Under the pieces are notes generated by a model, which ran no database searches, was not told the origin of the DNA, and saw only the letters and a list, made by a program, of their open reading frames with translations. A program made the position numbers and the translations under genes. Below, one piece after another: positions 1 to 18,443 of a DNA stretch of 32,000 nucleotides. This DNA comes from Pseudoalteromonas tetraodonis (GTDB lineage Bacteria; Pseudomonadota; Gammaproteobacteria; Enterobacterales; Alteromonadaceae). How positions within the stretch are numbered: position 1 is the first letter of the stretch; each line of letters starts with the position of its first letter. Location: assembly GCF_002310835.1 (NCBI RefSeq), contig NZ_CP011041.1, forward strand, positions 2,220,001 through 2,252,000, written 5' to 3'.

Positions 1-538
1 TTGTTGCCAAATGGACAGCTGATAACATTACTAATCCATTTGAATTAACTAGTATTTGTTCCAACAACTGTAACGGGTATCCTTCACCGTGTCGTTTCAT
101 CGCATGAATTCCACCGTGTACGTAAGAGCTTGAAGCTTTCCAAGTAACATCTCTAAACTCAGTTAGCATTCGAGTAGCTTCAGCTGGTGCTTTGCCATCA
201 ATCTGCTTAATCATTTCGCAATGCGAAGGTAGGCCATTATCAGCATTAGCCGTATTTATAGATAAGTCTTGCATGATCCGATCAACTTTTTTCTCAGAAG
301 CTCCCCAGAGTAGCCATACAGATCTTGTTAAAGCATCAAATTGAAGCCTTAACAGCGATATTGCTGAAGTGCAGTTACCAATCTCCATTAAGTTTTGTAG
401 AGAGTGAGCATGTTCAATTGCAATATCACACATTACCCAACTGCCTAAACATCGTTTACTACTCTTATTCGGGCCAAGAGAAATAATCATGTTTAATTCA
501 TTGAGTAATAAGTTCGAACGTTCTAGAAGTGACTCCAT
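1..538 (-). CDS. hypothetical protein (3' end runs off the window); last visible gene of the R-M/defence operon
   Basis: Hand translation of the minus strand from ATG 538-536 gives MESLLERSNLLLNELNMIISLGPNKSSKRCLGSWVMCDIAIEHAHSLQNLMEIGNCTSAISLLRLQFDALTRSVWLLWGASEKKVDRIMQDLS... It stays open for 179 codons to position 1. It is missing from the ORF track only because its stop lies outside the window. It lies 53 bp downstream of, and co-directional with, 592..1455. No family recognised with confidence. Confidence 0.55.
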   Translation of the reverse strand, partial: MESLLERSNLLLNELNMIISLGPNKSSKRCLGSWVMCDIAIEHAHSLQNLMEIGNCTSAISLLRLQFDALTRSVWLLWGASEKKVDRIMQDLSINTANADNGLPSHCEMIKQIDGKAPAEATRMLTEFRDVTWKASSSYVHGGIHAMKRHGEGYPLQLLEQILVNSNGLVMLSAVHLAT

Positions 539-591: not shown

Positions 592-1455
592 TTAAACCCC
601 TCTCATCTGAGAGGTATGTAGCCACAGTTTAAACATCTCTTTGCAAGCTACAGAGTAAGGTTGAGAATCATCAAGGTAATCTTCTTTAATAATTAATAAC
701 TCTTCCTCGATTTCATTGGTAAAGTCTATTCCCTCTTCTTCCTGTCGTTTAAAATATCTTTCTATTCGAAAAAAACAGCGTTGTAGCCCTTTGTAAGTTT
801 TCGCTCTACTTTCGACTAATTCCGGTCTATTTAATCCAAAATATTTGATAGAAGCTTTAGCTTTTAGCCGACTAACGCCGGATTGATTCACAGGCTTTGC
901 GATGGGACGCTCACACACTGGATAAAATGTTAGGTAGTCTGAAGGATTCTCTTCACACGGATTAATAAGTAGCGGGATTTCATTTACTTCACTACCCTGA
1001 ACTCTTAGCGTGTTTGATGTGGGATATATAGGAAAGTGGTCAGATTTACCTAGATTGATTTGATTATTACGTATTAAGTGACCCCTCTTACGGTTACAAT
1101 CTATACAAGACGGTAATAAGTTGCTCCAGTCGGCAGCTAACCACCAGTACCCAGGACTAATCGTTCCTTGTTCTCCTTCTTTTTGAATTCTGGCTTTAGG
1201 TCTGAAGTGCTCAATGTCAGTAGGATGTACATCAAGATAATAACTTTCACAGTAAGCACATTTTTTTTTGAATAAACTATGCAATGCTCTGCTGATGTCA
1301 GCATTCTTATATACTTTAAAGCTGTATGCCTTCTCACCTGGAACATAGTTGTTATAGAATGCTGTTGCTTTTTGTAGCTCTTCACTTGCTGCTGAGTTTT
1401 GGCCGTCACAAGAGCCTGGAACAGCAATTGAGGTACGGTCTCTATATATCATCAA
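592..1455 (-). CDS. stand-alone HNH-type nuclease-like protein (PtuB/TIGR02646-like), paralogous to the N-terminus of the upstream 729-aa protein
   Basis: 287-aa ORF. Cys/His motifs KCAYCE (aa 65-70), IEHFRPK (81-87) and WSNLLPSCIDCNRKRGH (110-126) are typical of HNH/His-Me finger nucleases. Its start overlaps the stop of 1442..3631 by 14 nt. Confidence 0.75.
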   Translation of the reverse strand: MMIYRDRTSIAVPGSCDGQNSAASEELQKATAFYNNYVPGEKAYSFKVYKNADISRALHSLFKKKCAYCESYYLDVHPTDIEHFRPKARIQKEGEQGTISPGYWWLAADWSNLLPSCIDCNRKRGHLIRNNQINLGKSDHFPIYPTSNTLRVQGSEVNEIPLLINPCEENPSDYLTFYPVCERPIAKPVNQSGVSRLKAKASIKYFGLNRPELVESRAKTYKGLQRCFFRIERYFKRQEEEGIDFTNEIEEELLIIKEDYLDDSQPYSVACKEMFKLWLHTSQMRGV

Positions 1456-3631
1456 TCATCCCAAGACTTTTAGCTTTTTCAAATAAAGTTTCAATTGACT
1501 CTTTTGACCACTCCGAGTAATAAAGATCCTTCCTGTGCTCTGCTATTTCTAGATCTATCAGGCGCGTCAACATCCGTTCTCGCTTTGTTAAACCAGTATT
1601 GCTTTTCAACTCCAGTTCTTTGGGGGGGCTGATGTTCTCAATTATTTCTATTGAATTAGAATCACTAGATTCACTAGCAACTCTTTCAAGCTCTTTGTAA
1701 TAGTCTTGAAGGATATCCTCTGTTTCGATGTCCTGAGTTGTTTGCAGCCCAAACATGTCAGATGTGAGTAACTGATCGACAGAAGCACCTTTTAATGAAG
1801 GATAATCTGTTATTGCAACCAGCTCATCATCTTCATCGTGCTTTAGTATCAATAATTCACCTTCATTTAAGCCTCTCAAAATTAAGGGATCATGAGTTGA
1901 AACATAAAAATGAACTAGAGGAAACGCATCTCTAAAAGCTTGCAGTATCTTAAGCCTCCAAGAGGGATGTAAATGAGCATCAAGTTCATCGATTAAAACA
2001 TATGCTTGAGTAGACTCTAGCGAACTTACTCCTTGGTCAACAGAAAGTAAGACATCCAATATATCGCAAACTATAGTAACAACTGTTTTATAACCAGCAC
2101 TTAGAACGTCGAAATTTATGTACTCAAATTCATTATTATTAGTCAGTCTTTTGATTAGTAACTTTTGTTTTTGGTTAATTTCGAACTTGACACCCTCTGA
2201 TCCCAATATTGATTCTAAGATATCAGCTATCGCTAATAAACTGTTGCGATTCTTATGCCTTTTTAAAATGCCTTGAATCCCATTCAGTCTAGCTGTTTCA
2301 TTGAACAATGATTGAATTCGAAAGCCCATTGCATTACTGAGATTATCTTTCAATTGAGATTTGGCTGCTAACCTATACGAACCGTAACTTAGCACGCAAG
2401 GTGAAAAATCAGTTTCACCAAATATAGTAACTCTTTGGTTTTGATTATTTTCACTTCTCGTAATTAATAGCTCATTTGTTAATTCGTTATTGCTAAATGA
2501 TACTTTAATCCGAGCTTCTTTATAATTTCGATGAATTATATCTTTTGCATTGAGTCCAAGACGACTTTTAGCTTTCACACCTAAATTGTTTAACCGTTCA
2601 GCACCTAGTAAAGCTAATGTAATCGCCTGTAGAATAGTTGTTTTTCCTAATCCGTTAGTGCCTAAAAAAGAATAACAAGCCCCTTTACCCTCCAACATAC
2701 GAACATCAGTACGAAAGTTCTTTATTCCTTTAAAACCTTTAATTTCAATACTCGAAATTGAGTGAAACTGATTGATTGGTATGTAATCAAAGTAGACTGA
2801 ATTAAAAGCCTGTAACTCAGCTAAACTTTTTGAGGTCCGTTTAATAACGGATGCAGGTACAACTTGAAGCTTAAGAAAAAATTTAATGCTATCACGCAGT
2901 TCATTGTTCTGTGTTGTCATAGCAAATTTAGCTAACAAACCACTGAATTCGCCTTTTGCTGAAACTAAATCCTCGATTCTACTTTTAATTTCAGCTTTGG
3001 CTCTTGGATCATTTTGATCAACGTACAAATCTGCATAATTGAATAATTCAGTAATCTTACTCAATCTTCTCTCTACTAAATTGAGACGGTTAAGCTTCAA
3101 AACTTTAATTGTTTCCTGACCAATTCTTGTGATTCCTTCGAGCAAACCTCTGTCATTAAGCTCAATGTGCTGAGATGGATCAAAATAACAAGGATCTATC
3201 AAATCTGCTTTTTCTATTTCCCTTAGTTGCTTCAGAGGCATCATAATCTGACCAGGATTAGCTACAGAGAAGTTATTTCCTTTATATTTTGAGCACTCAA
3301 TACAAGATAGGTAAAGGTTCTCCCAATCTAGTGTAAGCCAAGCATAATAAGCATTATCTACTTGCCCATTCTTCCTTCGAGCGCCACCTATTGGACGGAA
3401 ATGTTCAACTACAGATATGCTTTCTTCTACTATCGTTTCACAAAATGCACATTTATGTTCAAATTCGTTGAACAGGTCATATTTTATCTCTTTTAAAACC
3501 CATCCTTTATATTTTGGAGGGCGAACATATTGCTCCTTTGAAAAATATTCTTTTAGTTCTTCGAGGTACTTTTCTTTCTCTAAATTTAATTGGCTATGAT
3601 TAAAATAATCAGTCCTTTGAACATATCTCAT
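1442..3631 (-). CDS. HNH nuclease domain fused to an ABC/SMC-type ATPase (Septu PtuA-like ATPase with an extra N-terminal nuclease module)
   Basis: 729-aa ORF. N-terminal motifs: KCAFCE (60-65), VEHFRP (75-80), WENLYLSCIECSKYKGNNF (103-121). ATPase motifs: Walker A GTNGLGKTT (324-332), signature-like LSAGYK (510-515), Walker B YVLIDELDAHLH (544-555), H-loop STHDP (578-582). Only 34 bp separate it from the hsdM stop. Confidence 0.75.
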   Translation of the reverse strand: MRYVQRTDYFNHSQLNLEKEKYLEELKEYFSKEQYVRPPKYKGWVLKEIKYDLFNEFEHKCAFCETIVEESISVVEHFRPIGGARRKNGQVDNAYYAWLTLDWENLYLSCIECSKYKGNNFSVANPGQIMMPLKQLREIEKADLIDPCYFDPSQHIELNDRGLLEGITRIGQETIKVLKLNRLNLVERRLSKITELFNYADLYVDQNDPRAKAEIKSRIEDLVSAKGEFSGLLAKFAMTTQNNELRDSIKFFLKLQVVPASVIKRTSKSLAELQAFNSVYFDYIPINQFHSISSIEIKGFKGIKNFRTDVRMLEGKGACYSFLGTNGLGKTTILQAITLALLGAERLNNLGVKAKSRLGLNAKDIIHRNYKEARIKVSFSNNELTNELLITRSENNQNQRVTIFGETDFSPCVLSYGSYRLAAKSQLKDNLSNAMGFRIQSLFNETARLNGIQGILKRHKNRNSLLAIADILESILGSEGVKFEINQKQKLLIKRLTNNNEFEYINFDVLSAGYKTVVTIVCDILDVLLSVDQGVSSLESTQAYVLIDELDAHLHPSWRLKILQAFRDAFPLVHFYVSTHDPLILRGLNEGELLILKHDEDDELVAITDYPSLKGASVDQLLTSDMFGLQTTQDIETEDILQDYYKELERVASESSDSNSIEIIENISPPKELELKSNTGLTKRERMLTRLIDLEIAEHRKDLYYSEWSKESIETLFEKAKSLGMIDDI

Positions 3632-3665
3632 TAATACACCCTAAATATCAAACAGAGCTTCTCTG

Positions 3666-5150
3666 CTATGCATTCAACGACACTAATACTTGGCGAAAGC
3701 TGTCTAAGCCAGCTTCCATGTTTTCAATTATCTCTCCTGCTAATACTTCCGGGTCAGGCAGGTTTTCTAAGTCGGTTAGCGATTTATCTTTTAGCCAGAA
3801 AATATCTAAGCTAGTTTTATCACGCGCTAAAATTTCTTCGTGAGTGTATTTGCGCCAACGGCCTTCAGGGTTTGTTTCTTCGTTCCATGTTTCTGTTCGG
3901 TCATGTCTGTTCTCAGGGTTATAACAATCAACAAACTCTTGAAGGTCAGCCATTGTCATTGGCTTTTTCTTCAGCGTGTGATGAACATTGGTGCGATAAT
4001 CGAAGAACCAGATGTCTTTTGTCCATGCGTCTTTTTGTGCAGGCTTGTTGTCGAAGAATAAAACGTTCGCCTTTACGCCATTTGCGTAGAAGATACCTGT
4101 TGGTAGACGTAATATAGTATGAAGCTCAGTGCTCTCCATCAATCTTTTACGGACTGTTTCACCCGCTCCACCTTCAAACAAAACGTTGTCTGGTAAAACC
4201 ACTGCGGCGCGACCAGTTGTGTTTAACATACTGCGAATATGCTGAACGAAGTTAACCTGTTTGTTTGAGGTAGTCGCCCAGAAGTCTTGTCGGTTGTAGG
4301 TTAAATCGTCTTTTTCTTGTTCACCTTCTTCATTGGTAAACGTCATGCTACTTTTCTTACCGAACGGAGGGTTTGCAAGAACCATGTCTACTGTGCGTGA
4401 AGGCTGAGAAATCAATGAGTCATCACCGCTAACCAAGCTTTCACCGTCAATTTCACCAATGTTATGTAAAAACATGTTCATTAAACATAGACGGCGAGTA
4501 TTGGCGACAATTTCGTTGCCAAAGAAAGTTTCATTTTTAAGAAATGCTTTTTGCTGTTTATCTAATTTGTAATTATTAGGATCAGTTATGAAATCATACG
4601 CATGTAAGAAAAATCCGCCCGTACCACATGCCGGATCAGCTATAGTTTGATTTGGCGCTGGTCTCATACATAAAACTATCGTTTTGATTAGATCGCGAGG
4701 CGTAAAGTATTGGCCTGCGCCAGATTTAGTATCTTCAGCGTTTTTTTCCAACAAGCCTTCATAGATGGTGCCTTTAGTGTCAGACCCCATCATCACCCAA
4801 TTAACATCATCAACCATTTCAACTAATCGCTTTAGTTTTGACGGATCTTGGATGTAGTTTTGGGCCTTTGTAAATATTTGCCCCAACATGCCAGGCTTTT
4901 TAGCAAGCTCTCTCAGTGTAGTGACATAATGCACTTCAAGATCTGAGCCTGTTTCATTTTTAAGGCTCTGCCAGTTGTACTCTTCAGGTATACCTACATC
5001 TCGGCTATAAGGTGGTTTACTATACTCATCTGCCATTTTAAGGAAGATCAAGTAAGTCAATTGAGTAAGGTAGTCACCGTAACCGACACCATCGTCACGT
5101 AAGGTGGTACAAAAACTCCAAACTTTAGATACTATGCTTTGTGTGTTCAT
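3666..5150 (-). CDS. hsdM: type I restriction-modification system, N6-adenine DNA methyltransferase subunit M
   Basis: 494-aa ORF with AdoMet motif I DPACGTGGF and catalytic motif IV NPPFG. It has an HsdM-type N-terminus (SKVWSFCTTLRDDG) and sits next to hsdS and hsdR. Confidence 0.93.
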   Translation of the reverse strand: MNTQSIVSKVWSFCTTLRDDGVGYGDYLTQLTYLIFLKMADEYSKPPYSRDVGIPEEYNWQSLKNETGSDLEVHYVTTLRELAKKPGMLGQIFTKAQNYIQDPSKLKRLVEMVDDVNWVMMGSDTKGTIYEGLLEKNAEDTKSGAGQYFTPRDLIKTIVLCMRPAPNQTIADPACGTGGFFLHAYDFITDPNNYKLDKQQKAFLKNETFFGNEIVANTRRLCLMNMFLHNIGEIDGESLVSGDDSLISQPSRTVDMVLANPPFGKKSSMTFTNEEGEQEKDDLTYNRQDFWATTSNKQVNFVQHIRSMLNTTGRAAVVLPDNVLFEGGAGETVRKRLMESTELHTILRLPTGIFYANGVKANVLFFDNKPAQKDAWTKDIWFFDYRTNVHHTLKKKPMTMADLQEFVDCYNPENRHDRTETWNEETNPEGRWRKYTHEEILARDKTSLDIFWLKDKSLTDLENLPDPEVLAGEIIENMEAGLDSFRQVLVSLNA

Positions 5151-5226
5151 TCTTTTTCACTTAATTATTTTTTTGGGATAGTCGTTTATCTACAAATACT
5201 GATGCTCAGCTTCAACTATCGGAATA

Positions 5227-6777
5227 TTATATTTTTGCTTTTTTAGCCGCCGTTTTCGCTTTGCTGGCAGCTGCCTTTTCTGCTTTCTTTTTCTCAGCTA
5301 GTTCTGCTTTTTCAATCGCTATTTTCTTTAATAGCTCGCTAGCTGGATCATCATTTGGGTCTTGAGAGACTAGTTGCCCTGAGAATGCTTTCTTTAGAAT
5401 TGATTGCCTTAAAATGTCAGATTTTTTCAGGTTAATTTCAATATTGGTTAGTTCGTGTTCGACGACGGTTAACTTTTGTTCGAGAATATCTGCAATTTGA
5501 TTTTGCTCGTTGATACAACAAATGGGAACTGGTGTCATCCCAACATCAGTCTGGTTTATACTTGCTTGATTTACAGCATGTTTTGCATTGTCGCAAATAC
5601 GGTTTTTACCTGAAAAACTGGAAAGGTAAGACGTTAAGAAACTTCCTTTTAGAAAGTCATTTAGTACCTTAAACTTCATTATGTTGCTTTCAAAAACTAT
5701 TGGTTCATCAAGCTCTGGTATCTCACAACACTTACCTAAATACTCAATACTATTAACTCTATTAACTAGTATATCGTTAGGTTCAAGAACGTAGGTATTC
5801 AGCTCTTCCTTAGTAAGAGTTAGCCTTTTAAAGCCACCTTTCTTTACCAAACTTCCATCATAGAAATCATCAATTCGTACTATATAGTTACCTTGACCAT
5901 AGTCACTACTTGGCTTGTAAATACCGTTTTGAGCTGAACCGTTAATCAAGTTACCTAATCTAATCCACTGCCAGCTCTCTGGTAATGTAGGAAGAGCATC
6001 GATATCTTTATCTTCAAGAGAAGGAAATATCTTATGTTTTTTGGGCTTTGTTGGTTTTTTACCCTCTTTACCTTCAGTTTCCCATTCTACAACTTCTTTT
6101 TTCCAGTCTTCAAGTTGCTGTTGGTAACGAGCTTCGCGCTCTTGTTGAATGTGCTGGAGAAGCTGTTCCGGCGATTCAAGCTTGTCAGCATTATCCTTCC
6201 GCCATTCTTCGGTTAATTTGCCTTCAAAAGCATGTTTTAACAACGCTTGGCGATAAACAGCAAGTTGGGCCTTAGCGGTTTTTAGACTTTCAATTCCTTT
6301 ATCTAATTCAGAGAATAGCTCTTCTATTTTTTCAACAATACGGATTTGTTCATTTTCTGGTGGAATGCCAATAAGCTCTTTTGCAACCCACTGGTAATGT
6401 CGTGCATACCCTTTATCTTTGATTGATATCGCTAGATATTGGGTGAAATAAAATAAAAGCTTCGGTGTAATTGCTCCACTAGGCTGAAGAACTTTTACGC
6501 CATCAGCTCCGGCCACAAAGGGGTTATTGATTGATTTAACAGCCCTAGTGTGATCTCCAAAAACCAAGATAGGGAAGTTTGCATCTATGACTTTTTCTTC
6601 ATCGTTACAATACCCACTACAATCTTCTTTACCTTGATCTATAACTGGATATTTCCCTGATACTTCATACTGTTTCTGATTAACTTTTTTCCCATTTGTA
6701 GAAATAGTTGTAACTATATTTGCATAGTCATCTATCTCCCAACCAACAGGTAAGTTATTTTTATTTAAGTCACTCAC
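5227..6777 (-). CDS. hsdS: type I restriction-modification system specificity subunit S
   Basis: 516-aa ORF with two target-recognition halves, each opening with LPxGWE/LPESWQW. These are separated by conserved helical spacers (IVEKIEELFSELDKGIESLK... and IADILEQKLTVVEHEL...). Apparent GTG start sharing one nt with the hsdR stop. Confidence 0.88.
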   Translation of the reverse strand: MSDLNKNNLPVGWEIDDYANIVTTISTNGKKVNQKQYEVSGKYPVIDQGKEDCSGYCNDEEKVIDANFPILVFGDHTRAVKSINNPFVAGADGVKVLQPSGAITPKLLFYFTQYLAISIKDKGYARHYQWVAKELIGIPPENEQIRIVEKIEELFSELDKGIESLKTAKAQLAVYRQALLKHAFEGKLTEEWRKDNADKLESPEQLLQHIQQEREARYQQQLEDWKKEVVEWETEGKEGKKPTKPKKHKIFPSLEDKDIDALPTLPESWQWIRLGNLINGSAQNGIYKPSSDYGQGNYIVRIDDFYDGSLVKKGGFKRLTLTKEELNTYVLEPNDILVNRVNSIEYLGKCCEIPELDEPIVFESNIMKFKVLNDFLKGSFLTSYLSSFSGKNRICDNAKHAVNQASINQTDVGMTPVPICCINEQNQIADILEQKLTVVEHELTNIEINLKKSDILRQSILKKAFSGQLVSQDPNDDPASELLKKIAIEKAELAEKKKAEKAAASKAKTAAKKAKI

Positions 6778-9617
6778 TAAGCTACTAACTCACTATTTAA
6801 TTCATCTATAATTTTATTCATATCATCACCAAAGAGTTGATACATCTTGCCTAAACCACCTTGTGCATCAAATGGTGACATTTCCAGATCATCTAATTCA
6901 AAATGGAATGAATTAACAAAGTGTTCACGGATCATATGTAGCCACGCCATTTGTTCTTTAGTGAACTTTTGGTTGCTACCTGAGTGGTGCTTCATGATCC
7001 ACGTTTGGAAATTCTTGCTGACGGTGGTATTAAAGGTCGAGAGTTTATCATCAATGCCTACTACACGGCGAATTAATGCGACTAAAGCGGTTAACTCATT
7101 AATTGGCTTATTACCCTGTTCTTTTTTATTGTCAGGGTCTTCGAGTAATTCATACGCTTGCCATACATTTAGTGGGGCTAGTTTAGGTTTATCTGATTTG
7201 AGTTTTTCGAGCACCTCTTTGACCATATCAAAGGTAATTTCACGACGACGGTGTGGCTGGTCGTAGAATATTTCCAACGCGGTAATCTCATCTTTGTTTT
7301 GCTCTAGGTATTCAACAAAATCTTTGCAGATATCAGATGCTTGTTCGGTTGTCGCTTTTTCCCAATCAGCTATTTGCACTTCATCGATGTTGTCATGATC
7401 TATCTTTTGGTCTTTATCTCGGCGTATGGTATCGATAAGCTCAATTAACTCTCCGTTAAATACATTGGCGGCTTTACTTACCATCTCAGCTTGGGCTTTG
7501 TTGCGATTATCTTCGCCTGGGTCTGTGCCTTTTGGCTGTTTTGCCAGTATTAACGCTTGCTCTTCTACTTTGTCGCCATCAATAGCCGAGAATAAATCAA
7601 CTACCATTTGAGTAATTGAGACACCACCTGATACCTTTTCAATTCTCTTTTTATCGTCGGCATCTAGCTGCTTGTTCAATCGTGCTAACCTGCCAGCAAG
7701 TGAACTTACAGAGTCAGTATCACTAGCCCCCATCATGATGCCCATAGCCAAATCTTTGAGTGGTACAGATGGTTTAGTGATTAAAGGCTGACTCGCTGTT
7801 TTAAGTGATTTAGTAACACCAATTGCATCAACAATAACATAGTGCGTTTTTGCAGACTTTGCATCTGGCGTTACCTTGATTAATTCATCATGGTCAAAAG
7901 TACGTGTTCCGCGACCTTTCATTTGCTCGAAATAGTTTCGACTTTTAACATCTCTCATGAACACAAGGCACTCAAGTGGTTTTATATCTGTACCTGTTGC
8001 TATCATATCAACGGTTACTGCAATGCGAGGTTCGTATAGATTTCTGAAGCTGGAGAGTACCGATTTAGGATCTTCACCTTGCTCGATTACATTACCTTCT
8101 TTATCTGTTTTGTCTTTCTTTACACGGTAGGTGATTTTTTTACAGAAAGAGTTACCTTCGTCAAACTCTTCTCGAACCGTTTGAATAATATCGTCAGCAT
8201 GGCTGTCGGTTTTTGCAAAGATTAATGTTTTTGGCACATGTTCTCTATCAGGGAAAATGACAGGTAAACTCTCTTTGAAGGTTTTGATGACTGTACGAAT
8301 TTGACTAGGGTTTACGATATCTTTATCAAGCTGTTTTGCACTGTACTTTTCATCTTCATCTTGTTGCTCCCAGCGTTTTTTACGTGTCACACGTTCTCGG
8401 TGCTCAACTTGCTGCTTAGCTTGTAACGTTTCACCTTCTTTGGTAATTCTGGTTTGAATGGTAAAAACTTCATTACCTACGTTAACACCATCAGCAACAG
8501 CTTTTTCGTGGCTATAGTCACTGACAATGTTTTGCTTAAAGAAACCATAAGTGCGGTTATCGGGGGTTGCTGTTAAGCCAATCAGGAAAGCATCAAAGTA
8601 ATCTAATACTTGCTGCCATAAGTTATAGATTGAGCGGTGACATTCATCGATAAAAATGAAATCAAAATGCTCTATAGGTACTTTGGGGTTGTAAACAACA
8701 GGAACTGGCTCTTTAGGCTTGGTAAGTTGTTCAGCGGGGTTTTGCTCTTCTAATGTTTCGTCTAACTCTTCATCTTTTAAAATGGAGTACATTCGCTGGA
8801 TGGTACTGATACACACCTCAGCATCTTTAGGCACAAACTTTGACTTTAAGCGCTGTACGACATGCAGTTCGGTAAACTTACGGGTGTCGTCACTTGGCGT
8901 AAAGTTGAGCATTTCTTGCTCAGCTTGCTCACCCAAGTTTTTAGTATCCACTAAAAAGAGAATACGCTTACCCTTGGCATGTTTAAGAATGCGATACATG
9001 GATGTAATAGCGGTATAAGTTTTACCAGCGCCAGTTGCCATTTGGATAAGCGCTCTCGGCCTCGCTTTTTGAAGCGAGTCTTCAAGGTTTGTTATTGCTG
9101 TTTCTTGGCAATCACGCAGCCCTAAATCTTTTGCAGGTAGCTTTGCTGGATTTAACGGTGGAATATCTTGAAGACGAGCACGAAGAGAGTTTCCTTGTTC
9201 AACCCATGCTTTTAGCGTTTCAGGTCTATGAAAACTAAAAACTTCACGGGAGCGAGGCTTAGGATCTCTGCCATCTGTAAAACGTGTAATAACACCTGTA
9301 CTTTCATATAAAAAAGGAAGAGGTTCACTATTGTTGACCCATTTAAGCTTTGCGTTAGCGTAGCCTTCGGTTTGGTCTTCAACGGCAGTGATTTTCTCAC
9401 CTGCTTCTTCTCGTTTAGCTTCGATAACCCCAACGGCTTTTTTATCAACAAAAAGAACATAATCGGCGGGGCCTACATCTGTCTGGTATTCACGAATAGC
9501 TTGACCGATACCGTCATTCAAGTTAATTTTGGTTTTATCTTGAACAGTCCAACCTGCAAGTTTTAGCATTTCATCGATTTTATCGCGTGCTATTTGTTCT
9601 GCGTTTTGATTTACCAA
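6777..9617 (-). CDS. hsdR: type I restriction enzyme R subunit (helicase/endonuclease), EcoEI-like C-terminal region
   Basis: 946-aa ORF. HsdR-type N-terminus (ARDKIDEMLKLAGW). SF2 helicase motifs MATGAGKT, DECHRS, TATP and QMKGRGTR. Contiguous with hsdS and hsdM. Confidence 0.93.
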   Translation of the reverse strand: MVNQNAEQIARDKIDEMLKLAGWTVQDKTKINLNDGIGQAIREYQTDVGPADYVLFVDKKAVGVIEAKREEAGEKITAVEDQTEGYANAKLKWVNNSEPLPFLYESTGVITRFTDGRDPKPRSREVFSFHRPETLKAWVEQGNSLRARLQDIPPLNPAKLPAKDLGLRDCQETAITNLEDSLQKARPRALIQMATGAGKTYTAITSMYRILKHAKGKRILFLVDTKNLGEQAEQEMLNFTPSDDTRKFTELHVVQRLKSKFVPKDAEVCISTIQRMYSILKDEELDETLEEQNPAEQLTKPKEPVPVVYNPKVPIEHFDFIFIDECHRSIYNLWQQVLDYFDAFLIGLTATPDNRTYGFFKQNIVSDYSHEKAVADGVNVGNEVFTIQTRITKEGETLQAKQQVEHRERVTRKKRWEQQDEDEKYSAKQLDKDIVNPSQIRTVIKTFKESLPVIFPDREHVPKTLIFAKTDSHADDIIQTVREEFDEGNSFCKKITYRVKKDKTDKEGNVIEQGEDPKSVLSSFRNLYEPRIAVTVDMIATGTDIKPLECLVFMRDVKSRNYFEQMKGRGTRTFDHDELIKVTPDAKSAKTHYVIVDAIGVTKSLKTASQPLITKPSVPLKDLAMGIMMGASDTDSVSSLAGRLARLNKQLDADDKKRIEKVSGGVSITQMVVDLFSAIDGDKVEEQALILAKQPKGTDPGEDNRNKAQAEMVSKAANVFNGELIELIDTIRRDKDQKIDHDNIDEVQIADWEKATTEQASDICKDFVEYLEQNKDEITALEIFYDQPHRRREITFDMVKEVLEKLKSDKPKLAPLNVWQAYELLEDPDNKKEQGNKPINELTALVALIRRVVGIDDKLSTFNTTVSKNFQTWIMKHHSGSNQKFTKEQMAWLHMIREHFVNSFHFELDDLEMSPFDAQGGLGKMYQLFGDDMNKIIDELNSELVA

Positions 9618-9628
9618 CTTTACTCTCC

Positions 9629-10573
9629 CTAGTTTTGTTCAAAGCTTAGCTTTATTAATTGCTTTGCTATATCCAGCTCTTCAATATTTCGGACGATAAC
9701 CTCTAGATCACCAGTTCCCCAATGCCCTTTACCTCTAACATCACTGACGATACCATTTTTAAGCTCTACCGATTCAGGATTTAAGTTTAAATAAATTCTC
9801 AATGAAGGGTCTTGTAAAGGTGCCCATACTTGAACGCTCGCGAAATTTTTGATTTTCTTCAGTGCTGTGTAGAACTTTAGTTCCTTGCGTTGCACGTCGT
9901 CACCGAGTGATAAGCCAAATTCACAAATATGCTCATAAAGCTTTAAAAGGTCTTCACTAGCGGCAGCGATTCGATTCTGATGGTAATCCTTCCGTTCTTT
10001 TTTTGAAGTTTCTTGAACTGTCTTTTCCTGTAGTGCGGCAGCTGCGGGGTTAGAAAAGTAACGGTTAGATGAGTGGCTGTTTACCAATTCTAATAAAAAC
10101 AAATCTTCTCCGAAATATTTGTATCTCATCAGCTCAATGTTTTTATCAATTTGTTTTATCGCGTGCTCATCATACTTGGTGAAGTCAGTAGCGATACAAA
10201 TTAAACGTGCACCTTCCCATTCAAGATTGTCAGCAGCTTCACTGCTGAGCTTGTCCATTACGAGTAACTTAAATTCAGCCTTATGATCAATAAGCCAATC
10301 ATAATAAAACAGTCCTTGATTAATTACATTTTCATTGGTGTGCCGTTTGTATTCTATGATAACTGGACAGCCATTTTCATCTACACCAAGTGAATCAATT
10401 CTGCCACCGTTTGAGGTAGTAAATTCTGAAGCAAGGAACTTTACATTCAGGAAGGTTTCCATTTGTGACTCAACGAGCTGCTGCAAGTCTTTTTCAAGCT
10501 TAGCTTGTGCTCGCACTAGCTCTAGTGCAGTTCCTTTTGCTTGGTCTAGTTTGAATAACTTTATATCGCTCAT
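9629..10573 (-). CDS. PD-(D/E)xK nuclease-fold protein, NucS/DUF91-like N-terminus with a DUF5655-like C-terminal half
   Basis: 314-aa ORF. GRIDSLGVDENGCPVIIEYKR matches the D...(E)xK restriction-endonuclease-like core. It is the first gene of the operon, 11 bp upstream of hsdR. Confidence 0.6.
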   Translation of the reverse strand: MSDIKLFKLDQAKGTALELVRAQAKLEKDLQQLVESQMETFLNVKFLASEFTTSNGGRIDSLGVDENGCPVIIEYKRHTNENVINQGLFYYDWLIDHKAEFKLLVMDKLSSEAADNLEWEGARLICIATDFTKYDEHAIKQIDKNIELMRYKYFGEDLFLLELVNSHSSNRYFSNPAAAALQEKTVQETSKKERKDYHQNRIAAASEDLLKLYEHICEFGLSLGDDVQRKELKFYTALKKIKNFASVQVWAPLQDPSLRIYLNLNPESVELKNGIVSDVRGKGHWGTGDLEVIVRNIEELDIAKQLIKLSFEQN

Positions 10574-13385: not shown

Positions 13386-13512
13386 TGTTATAACTATTTA
13401 TTTTGAAATAGTTTTCAAACAAACGTGAAAAAACGGCACTATTTCGTAAAGCGAAGTAGGTAAGCCGTAAAAAAAGCATTTAAAACGACAAAAGAGTACC
13501 ATTTAAAAAATC
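13386..13512. repeat. tnsA-proximal cluster of TnsB-binding-site-like repeats (tentative Tn7-like right end)
   Basis: TGTTATAAC... begins at 13386. GAAATAGTTTTCAAAC (13405-13420) resembles the terminal repeat of the other end in inverted orientation. GTGAAAAAACGGCACTATTTCG (13425-13446), CGTAAAAAAAGCATTTAAAACG (13466-13487) and ACAAAAGAGTACCATTTAAAAA (13488-13509) resemble the AAAAAAGCACTATT repeat but in direct orientation relative to the far end. Confidence 0.45.
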
Positions 13513-13784: not shown

Positions 13785-14384
13785 ATGAAGGGTAAAAAAA
13801 AATTCAACAAACACCGTTCAAAACACACCATTAACTTTTACAGTGCTAAAAATGGTTGTCATATCTGGTGTGAGTCGTTTCTCGAACGCAAATACGGGAT
13901 AACGCTCGAATTTGAAGAGTCTATCCATCAATATGCTTCCCAACCAGAATCATTTAGTGTGTATGGAAGACGTTATACTCCTGACTTTTTGGTGGAATAT
14001 AAATCCGGCCATGCCGAATATGTAGAAATCAAACACACCCACTATATGAATGATGAATTCTTTGAGCGCCACTTCCTCAGGAAACGAGTCATTTATATGT
14101 TAACAGGGCTTGAACTGGTGCTGAGGAGTGAGCTTGATGTTGACAGCATTGAGGTAGAAAACTACGAACTACTCATGGGCTACAAGACTCTTGACGTCAA
14201 TCATTTACAGCCCGTTATCTGTAACTTACCAAAAAGAACAAAACTGTCTCGACTTGAAAAGTTAGTATCTAATTTGCCTGGTGGCTCACGAGCGCACGCT
14301 TGGTCACTCGTCGCACAACAACACTTTTATTTTGACACGTCAAAGCCTTTTAACGCAGAAACAACATTGATGAGGAAGAAGTAA
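13785..14384 (+). CDS. tnsA: Tn7-like transposase subunit TnsA (restriction-endonuclease fold)
   Basis: 199-aa ORF with an E...D...ExK pattern (SFLERKY ... YTPDFLVEY ... YVEIKHT). Located directly upstream of the DDE transposase. Confidence 0.85.
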   Translation: MKGKKKFNKHRSKHTINFYSAKNGCHIWCESFLERKYGITLEFEESIHQYASQPESFSVYGRRYTPDFLVEYKSGHAEYVEIKHTHYMNDEFFERHFLRKRVIYMLTGLELVLRSELDVDSIEVENYELLMGYKTLDVNHLQPVICNLPKRTKLSRLEKLVSNLPGGSRAHAWSLVAQQHFYFDTSKPFNAETTLMRKK

Positions 14385-16384
14385 TGTATCAGCCACCTGT
14401 GGTCGGTGACACCTTCATCGATATTGAACAGCGTAAATTTAATCTAGCATATTATGATGAGCTGCAAGCATTACTAAACCCTGACTCGATGTTAGGTTCG
14501 GAAATTGGCTTGCACTTAACTCAAGATGACTTTCGCTCGAAAATAGACAGCGGTGAATTACGACCAGCATACGCCATAACACACGAAAATAACGAGCTGA
14601 CAGCATCACAAAAAAAAGAACTGAAAAAGCGAGAGCCTTACATTACCGAGTTAGCAACATTGGTGCATGATGGCTATAAACCTACAGTTGACGAGACCAT
14701 CGATAAGCTCAAACAGATTGTTCATGACAAGTACCACATCGGCACCGAAAAACACGGTAATAGCACTATTGCACGTTGGTGGAAACAATATCGAGAAGCA
14801 GAATTTAATCTCAAAAAGTCAATTGCTCCGAGAAAAAGCCAACCCAAGCGAACCAATGCGGCCACGGAAAACTTCCTCAACCGATTTTTTACTGACACTT
14901 GGGTAAAAGGCAACATTGAAAACATTGCGAGAGGCTACTCAAGTTATTCTAAAGCAGTTTTAAAAGCTCAGACGCAAAATGACGCTATTGAACAGGTTAG
15001 CGAACGAACGTTTAGCAGACGCATTGAAGGACTTAATGCATTTAATATCATTTTAAACTCTGGAAACTACAGCGAAGTTAAAAAAGCACTACGTACATTA
15101 TCCAAGAAAATAAAAACCACTCATGTGCTTGAGCGAGTAGAAATGGACCGGATGTCACTTAACTTGGCTCTTATTGACGAAGAAGGTAAACCAACGGGCA
15201 ACGTCAGCATCTATATTGCTATTGACTGCCACTCACGCTACCCGCTGAGTGTTACATTCGAGCTGGGCACCTCTGAGGATACGGAAGGGGTTGTTCGATC
15301 ATTTAAGCGTATTTTTGAGTCAACCAGTGACCAGCTAAACGCTTGTGGTATTCCTTTTAAAATTATTGTGGATAATGGCAGTGGCTATAAAGCTGAGCAG
15401 TTCAAACAAATAACCCAACGCTTAGGGTGTGAGTTAATCAAAGCTCCATCGAATGAACCTTGGCGAAAACCTTTTGTTGAGTCTTTCAACAATACGTTGC
15501 GGGAAGAATTCTTTAAAGGAGGCGAATTTAAATTACCTGATGGAACAATAACCATAGGTCTTCCAGGTTATAAAGACAAACGCACCCACAAAACAAGTAA
15601 GCCGTCGTCTGAAGAAACCATTAAAAAAGCCGCTTCCTTGCCTGTCGAGGAGTTTGCCTCGCTACTGCATGATTACCTCGTTCACTATGTAAACTCAAAG
15701 CACTCAAGCCTCAACAACAAAACACCACAACAAGTATGGAACGAGTCAATTGCTCTAAAGCCTCTCATTCCTGTCAATAAAGAACTGCTCAGTGCTGCTT
15801 GCCATTATATAGAGCACAACCCTTCATTAAGCCAGCGAGGTACAGTTCAGGTCAACAAGCAGGTTTTCGCGGATGACCGTATAAAGCAATGCTATCTAGA
15901 TGCAAAAACTCTCGATAAAAACCAAGATATGACGGTTACTGTGAAATCTGACCCAGATGATGGCCGTTGGGTAACAGTCATCGCAGACTTCCCATGTTAT
16001 GACCACCCTAAAGTATTCGATTTTGTAGAAAACCGAAAGCTATCTGGAAATGAATTGGAGTACCCACTGTCATTTGAAGAACTTAACACAACATCAGGGA
16101 CGCCTGAACGGCGAGATATATTCAGTCGTAAAATTGCAAAGTTAGTTAAGCAAAGGACAAGATCACTTGGCAGTGGCAAGCCAGTTGCTACTGCAAAAGA
16201 AAACTTATCTAAGGGACTATCTACGGCAGAGCGCATTAAGCGAAGTAATCAGAGTTATGCATACAAACCTATCAAAAAGTCGAAGAAGTCCAAAGAGGAT
16301 AATACACCCTCAGATAAAGGAAATATTAAGCGAAAAGTAAGCCCTAATCGCAACGAAGCTCAGCTTGGTTTATGGCAGGACTAG
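14384..16384 (+). CDS. tnsB: Tn7-like DDE transposase TnsB (rve integrase core)
   Basis: 666-aa ORF with a DDE-type core: VEMDRMSLNL, IVDNGSGYKAEQF, NEPWRKPFVESFNNTLREEFF. Basic C-terminal tail. Confidence 0.88.
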   Translation: MYQPPVVGDTFIDIEQRKFNLAYYDELQALLNPDSMLGSEIGLHLTQDDFRSKIDSGELRPAYAITHENNELTASQKKELKKREPYITELATLVHDGYKPTVDETIDKLKQIVHDKYHIGTEKHGNSTIARWWKQYREAEFNLKKSIAPRKSQPKRTNAATENFLNRFFTDTWVKGNIENIARGYSSYSKAVLKAQTQNDAIEQVSERTFSRRIEGLNAFNIILNSGNYSEVKKALRTLSKKIKTTHVLERVEMDRMSLNLALIDEEGKPTGNVSIYIAIDCHSRYPLSVTFELGTSEDTEGVVRSFKRIFESTSDQLNACGIPFKIIVDNGSGYKAEQFKQITQRLGCELIKAPSNEPWRKPFVESFNNTLREEFFKGGEFKLPDGTITIGLPGYKDKRTHKTSKPSSEETIKKAASLPVEEFASLLHDYLVHYVNSKHSSLNNKTPQQVWNESIALKPLIPVNKELLSAACHYIEHNPSLSQRGTVQVNKQVFADDRIKQCYLDAKTLDKNQDMTVTVKSDPDDGRWVTVIADFPCYDHPKVFDFVENRKLSGNELEYPLSFEELNTTSGTPERRDIFSRKIAKLVKQRTRSLGSGKPVATAKENLSKGLSTAERIKRSNQSYAYKPIKKSKKSKEDNTPSDKGNIKRKVSPNRNEAQLGLWQD

Positions 16385-16387
16385 CCA

Positions 16388-17266
16388 ATGTTTAGCCACC
16401 CAAGTCTGAGCAAGTGCCTTGAACTAATAGACCAAGTTCATCAGCAAAGTTTTGGTAAAAATTATGGATTACTTTTAACAGGTCTAAGTGGTGTTGGTAA
16501 AACGTGTTTAGCCAAGACATATCTAGCACGTTTTCCAACTTTATGTACTCCCGAAGTAACCTACTATCCGGTCATTTATGTAAAGTTAACGGAGACTAAA
16601 ACAGCTACTGATTTTCTTATACAGGTCGTTAAAGCTCTCACTTCAGTCATAGGTAAAAATGCCAATAAAGCTCATATCGTTCAAGACAGGCTTGCCGTTT
16701 TACTTGCCGCGCATCGCGTACAACTGATCATTATCGATGAAGTACAGGAATGTTTGACGGATATCGACGGAATCACTAGTCAGCGAATGGCAAAGCAAAT
16801 AGCAGCGCTGCTAGATAACAACCCAAAAGTTTCACTTATTTTAATGGGAACGCCAGTCGCCAGCCGATTGTTAAAGCTTAAATATGGCAAATCAACGCAC
16901 AGATTAAAAGGTGAGGAGCAACTGAGCCGCCGTTTCCTATCTGAACAAAAGCTTTACATAATCCCTTCTCGCTGCGAGTGCTGGCTTTTGTGCTGTAATT
17001 ACTTTGCCACCGAATTTCGATTTCCGCCATTCACTCTAGACGACAAACCTATACTTAATCGTTTGCATGTCGCAACCGACGGCAGAATTGGGCTGTTAAC
17101 GAAGCTTTTTGCTATAGCTTCAACCAGTGAGCGTAAGAATCTGTTGGCTAAGCTTGAAGATGCTTACCTGTTGGGAATTAATTCATCTGCTTACAATCCT
17201 TTTGACACACTTGCCCTAACTGATAATGACATCGTTGGGATTTTAGATTCGAGGGAATTTGATTAA
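16388..17266 (+). CDS. tnsC: AAA+ ATPase TnsC/TniB family (short, TniB-sized)
   Basis: 292-aa ORF with Walker A GLSGVGKT and Walker B LIIIDEVQ. Positioned between tnsB and tniQ. Confidence 0.85.
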   Translation: MFSHPSLSKCLELIDQVHQQSFGKNYGLLLTGLSGVGKTCLAKTYLARFPTLCTPEVTYYPVIYVKLTETKTATDFLIQVVKALTSVIGKNANKAHIVQDRLAVLLAAHRVQLIIIDEVQECLTDIDGITSQRMAKQIAALLDNNPKVSLILMGTPVASRLLKLKYGKSTHRLKGEEQLSRRFLSEQKLYIIPSRCECWLLCCNYFATEFRFPPFTLDDKPILNRLHVATDGRIGLLTKLFAIASTSERKNLLAKLEDAYLLGINSSAYNPFDTLALTDNDIVGILDSREFD

Positions 17267-18254: not shown

Positions 18255-18443
18255 CCAAAAAGTGCCTTTTTAGAATTTCAGGTGATCATCAGCATCAATG
18301 AGAAAAGCACAATCAGACGGGTCATTTATTGGGTACCCGTAATAGTGGAAAAAAGCACTATTAGTGACAATTTCCGACACTATATTGTAAAAAAGCACTA
18401 TTATGATTTCCGTGGATTGTTGAAAAGTTATTCGATCTGGACA
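18255..18443. repeat. tniQ-distal transposon end: spaced array of TnsB-binding-site-like repeats ending ...CTGGACA
   Basis: The exact 15-mer AAAAAAGCACTATTA occurs at 18349-18363 and 18389-18403, 40 bp apart. Degenerate copies are CCAAAAAGTGCC (18255-18266), GAGAAAAGCACAATCAG (18300-18316) and GTTGAAAAGTTATTCG (18419-18434). The array ends ACA at 18441-18443, which is a TGT terminus on the other strand. Confidence 0.75.

What the first reader, a model, noticed from the sequence alone, without database searches (positions are those of the whole stretch)
592..3631. Septu-like nuclease/ATPase pair with a duplicated HNH module, wired to the 3' end of a type I R-M operon
Seen in the sequence: the 729-aa protein carries an N-terminal Cys/His nuclease module (KCAFCE...VEHFRP...WENLYLSCIECSKYKG). 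This is followed by a complete ABC/SMC-type ATPase (GTNGLGKTT, LSAGYK, YVLIDELDAHLH, STHDP). The next gene overlaps it by 14 nt. Its first ~200 aa are a clear paralogue of that N-terminus. Matching pairs are KCAYCE/KCAFCE, IEHFRPK/VEHFRPI, WSNLLPSCIDCNRKRG/WENLYLSCIECSKYKG, LINPCEENPSDY/LIDPCYFDPSQH and LNRPELVESR/LNRLNLVERR.
Established knowledge: an AAA_15/21-type ATPase plus an HNH nuclease is the Septu (PtuA/PtuB) defence architecture. ATPase-effector genes embedded in type I R-M loci (PrrC, RloC) act as a second line when restriction is blocked.
Inference: a nuclease-ATPase fusion plus a second free copy of the same nuclease is not the canonical Septu layout. The module starts only 34 bp after hsdM, so it is probably co-transcribed with hsdRSM. 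This is my best candidate for an undescribed or variant defence system.
Basis: partly seen in the sequence, partly recalled or inferred. Interest (0 to 1): 0.85.

Follow-up and report, generated by a model that had tools for sequence, protein, structure and literature searches.

The report
Septu defence pair with PtuB-like fusion
This is a Septu anti-phage gene pair (PtuA ATPase plus PtuB nuclease) of a common but unstudied subtype, in which PtuA carries an extra, often inactivated, copy of PtuB at its front end; its position behind a restriction-modification operon is a local trait of one bacterial lineage.

Summary
The sequence observation is correct. The minus strand encodes a 729-aa protein (1442-3631), made of a Cys4/His module plus a complete ABC ATPase. 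A 286/287-aa paralogue of that module (592-1452/1455) overlaps it, and the pair starts 34 bp after hsdM.

It is not an undescribed system. Full-length PADLOC PtuA1 profiles cover the whole fusion (E 2e-136), and the small protein is PtuB1 (E 6e-70).

The layout is common:
- All 80 species-level genomes examined, from at least seven phyla, have the fused PtuA followed at once by a free PtuB.
- 886 cluster representatives match at E<=1e-30.

The N-terminal module is predicted to be a whole PtuB fold. Free PtuB keeps the catalytic motif in 80 of 81 cases. The fused copy keeps the zinc cysteines but the full motif in only 14 of 81; here it reads E76-H77-N105-S114. The fused copy is therefore probably a regulatory or recognition pseudo-nuclease, and free PtuB is the effector.

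hsdM adjacency occurs in 1 of 75 nearest upstream genes family-wide, but is stable in the close Pseudoalteromonas clade. There the N-domain and the PtuA C-terminus plus PtuB are swapped independently.

Verdict: a known kind (Septu type I) in a catalogued but uncharacterised sub-architecture. Interest is modest.

The parts
1442..3631 (-). ptuA, fused form (729 aa): PtuB-like N-terminal module plus ABC/OLD-type ATPase plus C-terminal domain
   Evidence: ORF. PADLOC PtuA1 PDLC00292: residues 6-702 against profile 6-694 of 726, E 2e-136. Pfam AAA_15, AAA_21 and AAA_23 above cut-off. Best Foldseek matches are E. coli Septu PtuA 8eea/8ee4 and retron PtuA chains, E about 1e-15.
2882..3631 (-). N-terminal PtuB-like module (aa 1-250): Cys4 zinc site C61/C64/C110/C113, E76-H77, N105, and S114 in place of the helix Asn
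   Evidence: NCBIfam PtuB residues 19-225, E 1e-16. PADLOC PtuB1 PDLC00339 E 6.5e-35. BLASTP to the free PtuB E 2e-15. AF2 model of residues 1-285: pLDDT 81, pTM 0.78. The top 9 Foldseek hits are all PtuB chains, target-normalised TM-score 0.55-0.67. Residue statistics.
2762..2881 (-). Linker (aa 251-290) between the PtuB-like module and the ATPase
   Evidence: pLDDT below 50 at 270-288 and at 254-285. It is the least conserved segment among close relatives.
1832..2761 (-). ABC ATPase core (aa 291-600): Walker A K330, signature LSAGYK, Walker B D548-E549, H-loop H580
   Evidence: Translation. These residues are invariant in alignment A1. Pfam and NCBIfam matches. phmmer to PDB PtuA 8ee4 and 9n69.
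1445..1831 (-). PtuA C-terminal domain (aa 601-729). It diverges together with PtuB among close relatives.
   Evidence: Identity to P. marina: 73% here and 50% in PtuB, against 96-98% in the rest of PtuA. In solved Septu, the PtuA C-terminal domains hold PtuB (PMC12065111).
592..1452 (-). ptuB (286 aa from ATG 1452; 287 aa if TTG 1455): free HNH nuclease with the full catalytic motif
   Evidence: PADLOC PtuB1 PDLC00319 E 6e-70. NCBIfam PtuB E 1e-15; TIGR02646 48.5 bits against cut-off 52.15. A family profile hits PDB PtuB chains, E 4e-17. E81, H82, N111, C116, C119 and N120 are invariant in 40 partners.
3632..3665 (-). 34-nt hsdM-ptuA spacer, with a weak hairpin (3651-3667) that overlaps the hsdM stop codon
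   Evidence: Sequence. Terminator-like site with 7 pairs (3 G-C) and a T-poor tail; no promoter-like site within about 360 nt upstream. The spacer is conserved in L081 and L001 but not in L083.
3666..9617 (-). Type I R-M genes hsdR (6777-9617), hsdS (5227-6777) and hsdM (3666-5150). They are neighbours, not part of the Septu family definition.
   Evidence: Pfam EcoEI_R_C/ResIII, Methylase_S, N6_Mtase/HsdM_N. HsdM is 94-98% identical in relatives whose PtuA is only 71-93% identical.
1..538 (-). Partial DUF6988 gene (PADLOC candidate PDC-S52), 53 nt downstream of ptuB. It runs off the window.
   Evidence: Pfam PF22491 E 7e-58. PADLOC PDC-S52 E 3e-68. It follows ptuB in L001, L081, L083 and L084. 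The DUF6988 domain is reported as validated in defence (PMC13092281).

Best explanation
Genes 592-3631 are a type I Septu anti-phage system (ptuA-ptuB). They belong to a widespread subfamily in which PtuA carries a complete paralogue of PtuB at its N-terminus.

Shown here:
- Both proteins are homologues of PtuA and PtuB by profile and by predicted fold.
- The two genes overlap.
- The same fused-PtuA plus free-PtuB pair occurs in all 80 fused-family genomes examined.
- Free PtuB keeps its catalytic residues almost without exception. The fused copy keeps only its zinc-binding cysteines and fold-defining residues in most lineages.

Inferred, by analogy with solved Septu and retron I-A complexes:
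- PtuA forms ATP-bound dimers or higher oligomers whose C-terminal domains hold PtuB.
- Infection changes the ATPase state or exposes PtuB.
- PtuB then cuts nucleic acid (tRNA-Tyr or DNA in characterised relatives) and stops phage growth.
- The fused PtuB-like module is most likely a non-catalytic or weakly catalytic regulatory or recognition domain. It could be an in-built PtuB mimic that docks on PtuA, pairs with PtuB, or binds the trigger or substrate. It is probably not a second effector.
- Its rapid exchange between close relatives fits a specificity role.

Position behind hsdRSM: this is a stable arrangement within one Pseudoalteromonas lineage and may allow read-through transcription. 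It is not a property of the family.
For: Identity:
- PADLOC PtuA1 E 2e-136, covering residues 6-702. PtuB1 E 6e-70.
- NCBIfam PtuA and PtuB hits on the expected segments.
- Foldseek: the full-length model matches PtuA 8eea/8ee4 at E about 1e-15. The N-terminal model matches nine PtuB chains at E 2e-7 to 4e-5.
- No reverse transcriptase among the neighbours and no Rfam family in the window. This makes it type I rather than the retron type.

Prevalence:
- 80 of 80 loci have a free PtuB directly downstream on the same strand, mostly with a 4-nt overlap.
- 886 representatives of 50% clusters match at E<=1e-30. The best 150 are nearly all 620-940 aa and cover both modules.

Catalytic decay of the fused copy:
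- Free PtuB has [VI]EH[FY]RP plus C-N in 80 of 81.
- The fused copy has His at the canonical position in 46 of 81, and His together with the helix Asn/His in 14 of 81. Its four zinc cysteines are kept in 78-80 of 81.
- Each paralogue's nearest neighbour is of its own kind in 80 of 81 cases. This indicates one old duplication and fusion.

Mosaicism: identity to the window for N-domain / ATPase / C-terminus / PtuB is 98/96/73/50% in P. marina and 60/92/80/86% in L089, while HsdM stays at 98%.

Published mechanism of relatives:
- PtuA hexamer with PtuB held by PtuA C-terminal domains (PMC12065111).
- Septu cleaves the tRNA-Tyr variable loop, and both the Walker and the HNH motifs are needed (PMC13096335).
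- Different Septu variants are escaped through different phage genes (10.1101/2022.08.27.505566).
Against: - In this window the fused copy keeps both residues of the published PtuB 'catalytic dyad' (H77 and N105, equivalent to Ec78 H57 and N73). Only the Asn after the second CxxC is replaced (S114). Residual nuclease activity here cannot be excluded.
- The role proposed for the N-domain is an inference. No complex model or experiment was possible.
- NCBIfam equivalog cut-offs for the retron-Ec78 PtuA and PtuB are not reached, and TIGR02646 falls just short.
- No phage phenotype is known for any member of the fused subfamily that I could find.
- The residue counts depend on a MAFFT alignment and on mechanically called ORFs.
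Confidence: 0.7

Rival explanations
1. Dual-nuclease Septu. In this lineage the fused HNH is catalytically active. It works with free PtuB as a two-site nuclease, for example with each site cutting one strand or one site of the target.
For: E76, H77 and N105 are retained here and in the close clade. They correspond to the dyad H57/N73 that is required in Ec78 PtuB. 14 of 81 fused copies keep the complete motif.
Against: S114 replaces the Asn that is present in 80 of 81 free PtuBs. From established knowledge of the beta-beta-alpha-metal fold, this position is the helix metal ligand in HNH nucleases. 67 of 81 fused copies lack at least one motif residue, yet every one of them keeps a free PtuB. 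The fused copies are also less conserved: mean identity is 35% among them against 43% among free PtuBs.
Confidence: 0.2
2. R-M-coupled fail-safe, like PrrC/EcoprrI. ptuAB is transcribed with hsdRSM and is held in check by, or senses the inactivation of, the type I enzyme. It fires when a phage blocks restriction.
For: - The gap is 34 nt, with no promoter-like site nearby.
- hsdM lies directly upstream in the window, L001, L081/82, L089 and L090.
- About 250 bp of the hsdM 3' end persist upstream of ptuA in L083, where hsdM itself is gone.
- A 59%-identical relative follows an unrelated type I HsdR.
Against: - Across the family, only 1 of 75 nearest upstream genes is an N6 methylase, and only 1 of 80 loci has an HsdM/HsdS homologue within 8 kb.
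- No neighbour family recurs in more than 6 of 80 loci.
- ptuA and ptuB alleles are swapped independently of a 94-98% identical hsdM.
- A Septu system works alone in a heterologous host (PMC13096335).
- A weak hairpin sits at the hsdM stop codon.
- Type I R-M genes are common neighbours in defence islands in any case.
Confidence: 0.12
3. Three-gene system. The DUF6988 (PDC-S52) gene 53 nt downstream is a third component of this Septu variant.
For: It travels with ptuAB in L001, L081 and L083, the last in a different upstream context. It is co-directional with a short gap.
Against: It is absent after ptuB in L085-87 and L090 and in 79 of 80 family loci. It stays intact in P. espejiana, where ptuAB has decayed. 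PADLOC lists it as a separate single-gene candidate, and the DUF6988 domain is reported as newly validated in defence, in a validated transcription unit of a DefensePredictor screen.
Confidence: 0.1

Closest known systems
Septu type I (PtuA/PtuB), e.g. E. coli Septu (PDB 8EE4/8EE7/8EEA) and Septu Ec-B88
   Same: An ABC/OLD-type ATPase followed by a TIGR02646-like HNH protein in an overlapping two-gene operon. PADLOC PtuA1 and PtuB1 profiles match, and the folds match. No reverse transcriptase is present.
   Different: The characterised PtuA proteins are about 465 aa and begin with the ATPase (Walker A K43 in Ec-B88). Here about 290 aa comprising a PtuB paralogue and a linker precede the ATPase. 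The partner PtuB is longer (286 aa against 215-243 aa).
Retron I-A / Septu type II effector PtuAB (Retron-Eco7/Ec78, Ec83)
   Same: These are the closest solved PtuB structures to both HNH modules. The PtuB dyad H57/N73 aligns with H77/N105 in the fused copy and H82/N111 in the free copy.
   Different: No reverse transcriptase or msr/msd RNA is present. The NCBIfam equivalog cut-offs are far from met (106.7 against 500 bits, and 57.9 against 150 bits). The retron PtuA has no PtuB-like N-terminus.
OLD-family ATPase-nuclease fusions (P2 Old, GajA of Gabija)
   Same: One polypeptide combines an ABC ATPase with a nuclease-type domain, and the ATPase is thought to gate the nuclease.
   Different: In those proteins the nuclease is a C-terminal Toprim domain. 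Here it is an N-terminal HNH-type PtuB paralogue, often without catalytic residues, and a separate nuclease gene is always kept. There are no Toprim hits.
PrrC / RloC anticodon nucleases linked to type I R-M
   Same: An ABC-type ATPase is coupled to a nuclease next to hsd genes. The tRNA-cleaving outcome is plausible, because Septu relatives cut tRNA-Tyr.
   Different: PrrC and RloC carry a C-terminal anticodon-nuclease domain in a single protein, and prrC sits inside the hsd cluster (from my own knowledge, not tested here). In this window an HNH two-gene module sits after hsdM, and the linkage is confined to one lineage.

Membership tests
Septu type I | PtuA: ABC/OLD-type ATPase with Walker A, signature, Walker B and H-loop | tested here: met
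   Motifs are present in the translation and invariant in A1. Pfam AAA_15, AAA_21 and AAA_23 are above cut-off. PADLOC PtuA1 E 2e-136. The fold matches PtuA 8eea/8ee4.
Septu type I | PtuB: HNH (TIGR02646-like) nuclease with intact catalytic His/Asn | tested here: met
   PADLOC PtuB1 E 6e-70. E81, H82, N111 and N120 are invariant among 40 partners. A profile hits PDB PtuB chains at E 4e-17. TIGR02646 itself scores 48.5 bits, just under its 52.15 cut-off.
Septu type I | ptuA followed directly by a co-directional ptuB | tested here: met
   The overlap is 11 or 14 nt. The same order is seen in 80 of 80 related loci.
Septu type I | No associated reverse transcriptase or retron RNA (separates type I from type II / retron I-A) | tested here: met
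   No RT domain in any neighbouring ORF. No Rfam family in the window.
Septu type I | Protects against phage; requires the ATPase and HNH motifs | not testable with these tools
   This needs cloning and phage challenge. It has been shown for relatives only (PMC13096335).
Retron Ec78-type PtuA/PtuB equivalogs (NCBIfam NF041760 / NF041761) | Score at or above the curated equivalog cut-off | tested here: not met
   PtuA scores 106.7 bits against 500. The PtuB model scores 61.2 bits (fused N-domain) and 57.9 bits (free PtuB) against 150.
OLD / Gabija GajA | C-terminal Toprim nuclease domain fused to the ATPase | tested here: not met
   No Toprim match in Pfam, NCBIfam or PADLOC.
PrrC/RloC-type R-M-linked anticodon nuclease | Single protein with an ABC ATPase plus a C-terminal anticodon nuclease; functional dependence on the linked type I enzyme | tested here: not met
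   The architecture differs: N-terminal HNH-type module, separate PtuB, no PrrC/RloC hit among the listed best PADLOC matches or in NCBIfam. Functional dependence is not testable. Adjacency to hsdM occurs in 1 of 75 family loci.

The most novel reading that the evidence does not exclude
The fused PtuB paralogue may be a pseudo-nuclease that defines a mechanistically distinct Septu subtype. It could act as a built-in decoy or partner for PtuB on the PtuA scaffold, or as the module that recognises the phage trigger or the target. That would explain why it is swapped between near-identical ATPase cores. In Pseudoalteromonas the cassette may additionally be expressed from the hsd operon as a back-up to type I restriction.
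Probability: 0.25. Interest if true: 0.55.

Novelty: new member of a known kind. Interest (0 to 1): 0.3.

Why it matters
As a locus it is ordinary. Standard defence-system finders would call it Septu type I next to a type I R-M system in a defence island.

Two points go beyond that:

- All structural and biochemical work on Septu and retron I-A has used unfused PtuA. Yet a large, phylum-spanning branch carries a PtuB paralogue on PtuA whose catalytic residues have mostly decayed, while the free PtuB stays intact. This natural fusion supports the PtuA-PtuB partnership. It also offers a way to study how the nuclease is held in check or how targets and triggers are recognised.

- Among close relatives, the N-domain and the unit formed by the PtuA C-terminus plus PtuB are exchanged independently. 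This marks them as the likely specificity and interface modules.

Neither point overturns current understanding.

Tried and rejected
1. hsdM adjacency as a family trait. phmmer with the window HsdM, HsdS and HsdR against all ORFs of 80 loci found homologues of HsdM/HsdS only in L001. Pfam on 75 nearest upstream ORFs found N6_Mtase once. Rejected as a family trait; kept as a lineage trait.

2. A conserved third gene. All-against-all BLASTP of 606 neighbouring ORFs found no family in more than 6 of 80 loci.

3. Retron or type II Septu. There is no reverse transcriptase and no Rfam hit.

4. OLD or Gabija. There is no Toprim domain.

5. The Cys/His module as a bare zinc finger. Rejected: profile matches and the predicted fold cover the whole PtuB, including its C-terminal domain.

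6. Recent tandem duplication of ptuB. Rejected: fused domains group with fused domains and free copies with free copies, in 80 of 81 cases each.

7. Literature. No paper in the held library describes an HNH- or PtuB-fused PtuA. Doron 2018 and Li 2024 are not held. A supplement that lists the founding Bacillus Septu clones gives no sequences. I therefore could not tell whether those founding systems are of the fused type. Bacillus and Priestia plasmids do carry fused homologues.

8. Tn7-like ends. The repeat search gave only short candidate sites, so the element boundaries remain unresolved.

9. Promoter and terminator scan. The counts are no higher than in shuffled sequence, so the scan is uninformative on co-transcription.
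Full report
**Observation.** The minus strand carries a run of co-directional genes with short gaps:

| Gene | Coordinates | Note |
|---|---|---|
| DUF5655 protein (PADLOC candidate PDC-S18) | 9629-10573 | precedes hsdR by 11 bp |
| hsdR | 6777-9617 | type I R-M |
| hsdS | 5227-6777 | type I R-M |
| hsdM | 3666-5150 | type I R-M |
| 729-aa ORF | 1442-3631 | the fusion |
| 286/287-aa ORF | 592-1452/1455 | the free copy |
| DUF6988 gene (PDC-S52) | 538 down to 1 | partial, runs off the window |

The gap between hsdM and the 729-aa ORF is 34 nt. The two ORFs overlap by 14 nt from the TTG, or by 11 nt from the ATG that is the second codon. The ATG is the likelier start. The N-terminus of the large protein and the small protein are paralogues: 28% identity over 166 aa, E 2e-15.

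**What it is.** PADLOC places both proteins in Septu type I.
- The 729-aa protein matches three PtuA1 profiles of 726-773 positions from end to end. The best is PDLC00292, with residues 6-702 against profile 6-694, E 2e-136.
- The small protein matches PtuB1 (E 6e-70). It also matches the N-terminal part of those same PtuA1 profiles. The fused architecture is therefore already built into the reference models.
- NCBIfam sees PtuA on residues 459-659 and PtuB on residues 19-225 of the large protein, but far below the retron-Ec78 equivalog cut-offs. TIGR02646 falls just short for the free copy.
- Pfam sees only the ATPase.
- There is no reverse transcriptase nearby and no Rfam family in the window. 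This makes it type I rather than the retron form.

**Structure.**
- An AF2 model of the whole protein (pLDDT 72.6) best matches E. coli Septu PtuA and retron PtuA chains, E about 1e-15.
- A model of residues 1-285 (pLDDT 81, pTM 0.78) has the beta-beta-alpha arrangement: strand 73-77 ending at H77, strand 106-110, helix 111-117.
- Its nine best PDB matches are all PtuB chains, aligned over nearly their whole length (target-normalised TM-score 0.55-0.67). Cas9 entries follow only at E>0.01.
- The N-terminal module is therefore a complete PtuB-like unit, not a bare zinc finger.
- Solved PtuA proteins (465 aa and about 550 aa) have no such module.

**How common the layout is.**
- A scan of one genome per species returned 80 loci from Pseudomonadota, Bacteroidota, Actinomycetota, Acidobacteriota, Cyanobacteria, Verrucomicrobiota and others. 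Their matches cover both modules.
- In all 80, a PtuB homologue of about 270-360 aa lies directly downstream on the same strand, usually with a 4-nt overlap.
- An exhaustive search of 1.84 billion cluster representatives gave 886 hits at E<=1e-30. The best 150 are nearly all 620-940 aa and span both modules.
- Thirty-four plasmids, including Bacillus, Priestia and Rhizobium plasmids, carry homologues annotated only as 'AAA family ATPase'.

**Which copy is the nuclease.** I aligned 81 fused modules with their 81 partners.

| Feature | Free PtuB | Fused copy |
|---|---|---|
| Zinc cysteines, each of the four | 80-81 of 81 | 78-80 of 81 |
| R79-P80 and W103-x-N105 equivalents | kept | kept |
| His at the canonical position | 80 of 81 | 46 of 81 (Arg in 21) |
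| Asn after the second CxxC | 80 of 81 | 21 of 81 |
| His plus helix Asn/His together | 80 of 81 | 14 of 81 |

Free PtuB also has [VI]EH[FYW]RP in essentially every case. Each kind is most similar to its own kind in 80 of 81 cases, so the duplication and fusion is old and happened once. The fused copies are less conserved: 35% mean identity against 43%.

The published Ec78 PtuB dyad H57/N73 aligns with the His of EHFRP and the Asn of W-x-N. In this window the fused copy keeps both of these (H77, N105). It has Ser114 where free PtuBs have Asn. From established knowledge of HNH nucleases, such as N863 of Cas9, this position is the helix metal ligand. Activity of the fused copy in this particular protein is therefore uncertain. 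Across the family it is clearly dispensable, whereas a free PtuB is never dispensed with.

**Likely mechanism.** In solved Septu, PtuA oligomers hold PtuB between PtuA C-terminal domains, and the ATPase state controls the nuclease. [quoted passage not shown] Different Septu variants are escaped through different phage genes. I infer the same core mechanism here, with free PtuB as the effector. I infer that the fused PtuB-like module is a regulatory or recognition domain. This last step is inference only.

**The link to type I R-M.**
- Family-wide it is absent. HsdM/HsdS homologues occur within 8 kb in 1 of 80 loci. N6_Mtase appears in 1 of 75 nearest upstream genes. No neighbour family recurs in more than 6 of 80 loci.
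- Within the close Pseudoalteromonas clade it is stable. hsdM lies 31-35 nt upstream of ptuA in relatives whose PtuA is 71-93% identical.
- One relative (L083, 78%) has lost hsdM but keeps about 250 bp of its 3' end in front of ptuA.
- A 59% relative follows an unrelated HsdR.
- The consensus scan found no promoter-like site near the junction and only a weak hairpin at the hsdM stop codon. Its site counts do not exceed those in shuffled sequence.
- Co-transcription is plausible but untested. PrrC-like coupling is unsupported.

**Mosaicism.** HsdM is 94-98% identical among these relatives. Identity of the Septu parts to the window is as follows.

| Relative | N-domain | ATPase | PtuA C-terminus | PtuB |
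|---|---|---|---|---|
| P. marina (L081) | 98% | 96% | 73% | 50% |
| L089 | 60% | 92% | 80% | 86% |
| L090 | 69% | 78% | 60% | 77% |

Against P. marina, nucleotide identity is high through most of ptuA. It declines from about position 2060, falls to 72-76% by about 1770-1620, and is lower still in ptuB. The N-terminal module, and the unit formed by the PtuA C-terminus plus PtuB, are thus exchanged separately from the ATPase core. This fits an interface that co-evolves with PtuB and an N-domain with a specificity role.

**Verdict.** The interpretation as an undescribed system is not supported. This is a Septu type I pair of a catalogued, widespread, but experimentally uncharacterised sub-architecture, sitting in a defence island. 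I found no paper describing the fusion. Two key papers are not held, and I could not establish whether the founding Bacillus systems are of the fused type.

Noticed in passing
window 1-538 (-); L081 13230-13748; L083 11138-11758; L084 11086-11604: A DUF6988 gene (PADLOC candidate PDC-S52, E 3e-68) lies 53 nt after ptuB. It travels with ptuAB in several Pseudoalteromonas relatives. In P. espejiana it stays intact although ptuAB and the hsd genes are fragmented. A 2026 paper lists DUF6988 among domains newly validated in defence.
   Followed up: partly
window 9629-10573 (-): A 314-aa DUF5655 protein matches PADLOC candidate PDC-S18 (E 2e-130). It sits 11 bp upstream of hsdR, and a 314-aa gene occupies the same position 11 bp upstream of hsdR in L081 and L089. 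It may be a further member of the same defence island or operon.
   Followed up: partly
window 592-3631 compared with L081, L089, L090, L083: There is domain-level mosaicism. The PtuB-like N-domain, and the PtuA C-terminus plus PtuB, differ by up to 40-50% between relatives whose ATPase core (92-96%) and hsdM (98%) are nearly identical. Against P. marina, nucleotide identity declines from about window 2060 and is 72-76% by about 1770-1620.
   Followed up: yes
L083 7777-8000, compared with window 3632-3866: A relative that lacks hsdM keeps about 250 bp homologous to the hsdM 3' end directly upstream of ptuA. It lies next to a Dcm / Z1 / DUF4420 / AIPR cluster. This is either a recent deletion scar or a retained regulatory region for ptuAB.
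   Followed up: partly
window 13785-18252 (+), repeats at 13430-13443, 18342-18363 and 18382-18403: A Tn7-like transposition module is present: a TnsA-like protein, an rve-family TnsB, a TniB/AAA_22 TnsC, and TniQ. Candidate 22-nt end repeats lie just after tniQ. The whole region lies between syd/queF on one side and, in P. marina, DUF3301/DUF446/pseudouridine synthase genes on the other. This suggests an insertion hotspot. The element boundaries are unresolved.
   Followed up: partly
L058 10767-12665 and about 5 other loci; L017/L077/L078 3663-8004: In other phyla the fused ptuAB has recurrent lineage-specific neighbours. One is a patatin-like phospholipase gene next to the pair in about 6 loci, mostly directly after ptuB (e.g. 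L058). The other, in 4-5 mostly Flavobacteriia loci (e.g. Flavobacterium, Chryseobacterium, Confluentibacter), is an N6/N4 methylase, a DUF87 (HerA-like) ATPase and a 446-aa unknown protein directly upstream.
   Followed up: partly
L088 (B. mycoides plasmid p37) 2044-6761: A Bacillus plasmid carries a fused PtuA (690 aa, annotated 'AAA family ATPase') and a 289-aa 'hypothetical protein', behind a dcm methylase. Because Septu was first defined in Bacillus, the founding systems may themselves be of the fused type.
   Followed up: no
window 29974-31728 (-): A 584-aa SF2 helicase (ResIII plus Helicase_C) gives weak PADLOC hits to type IV restriction and PbeA models. Its setting among housekeeping genes (tamA/tamB, rraB) suggests a chromosomal repair helicase rather than a defence gene.
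   Followed up: no
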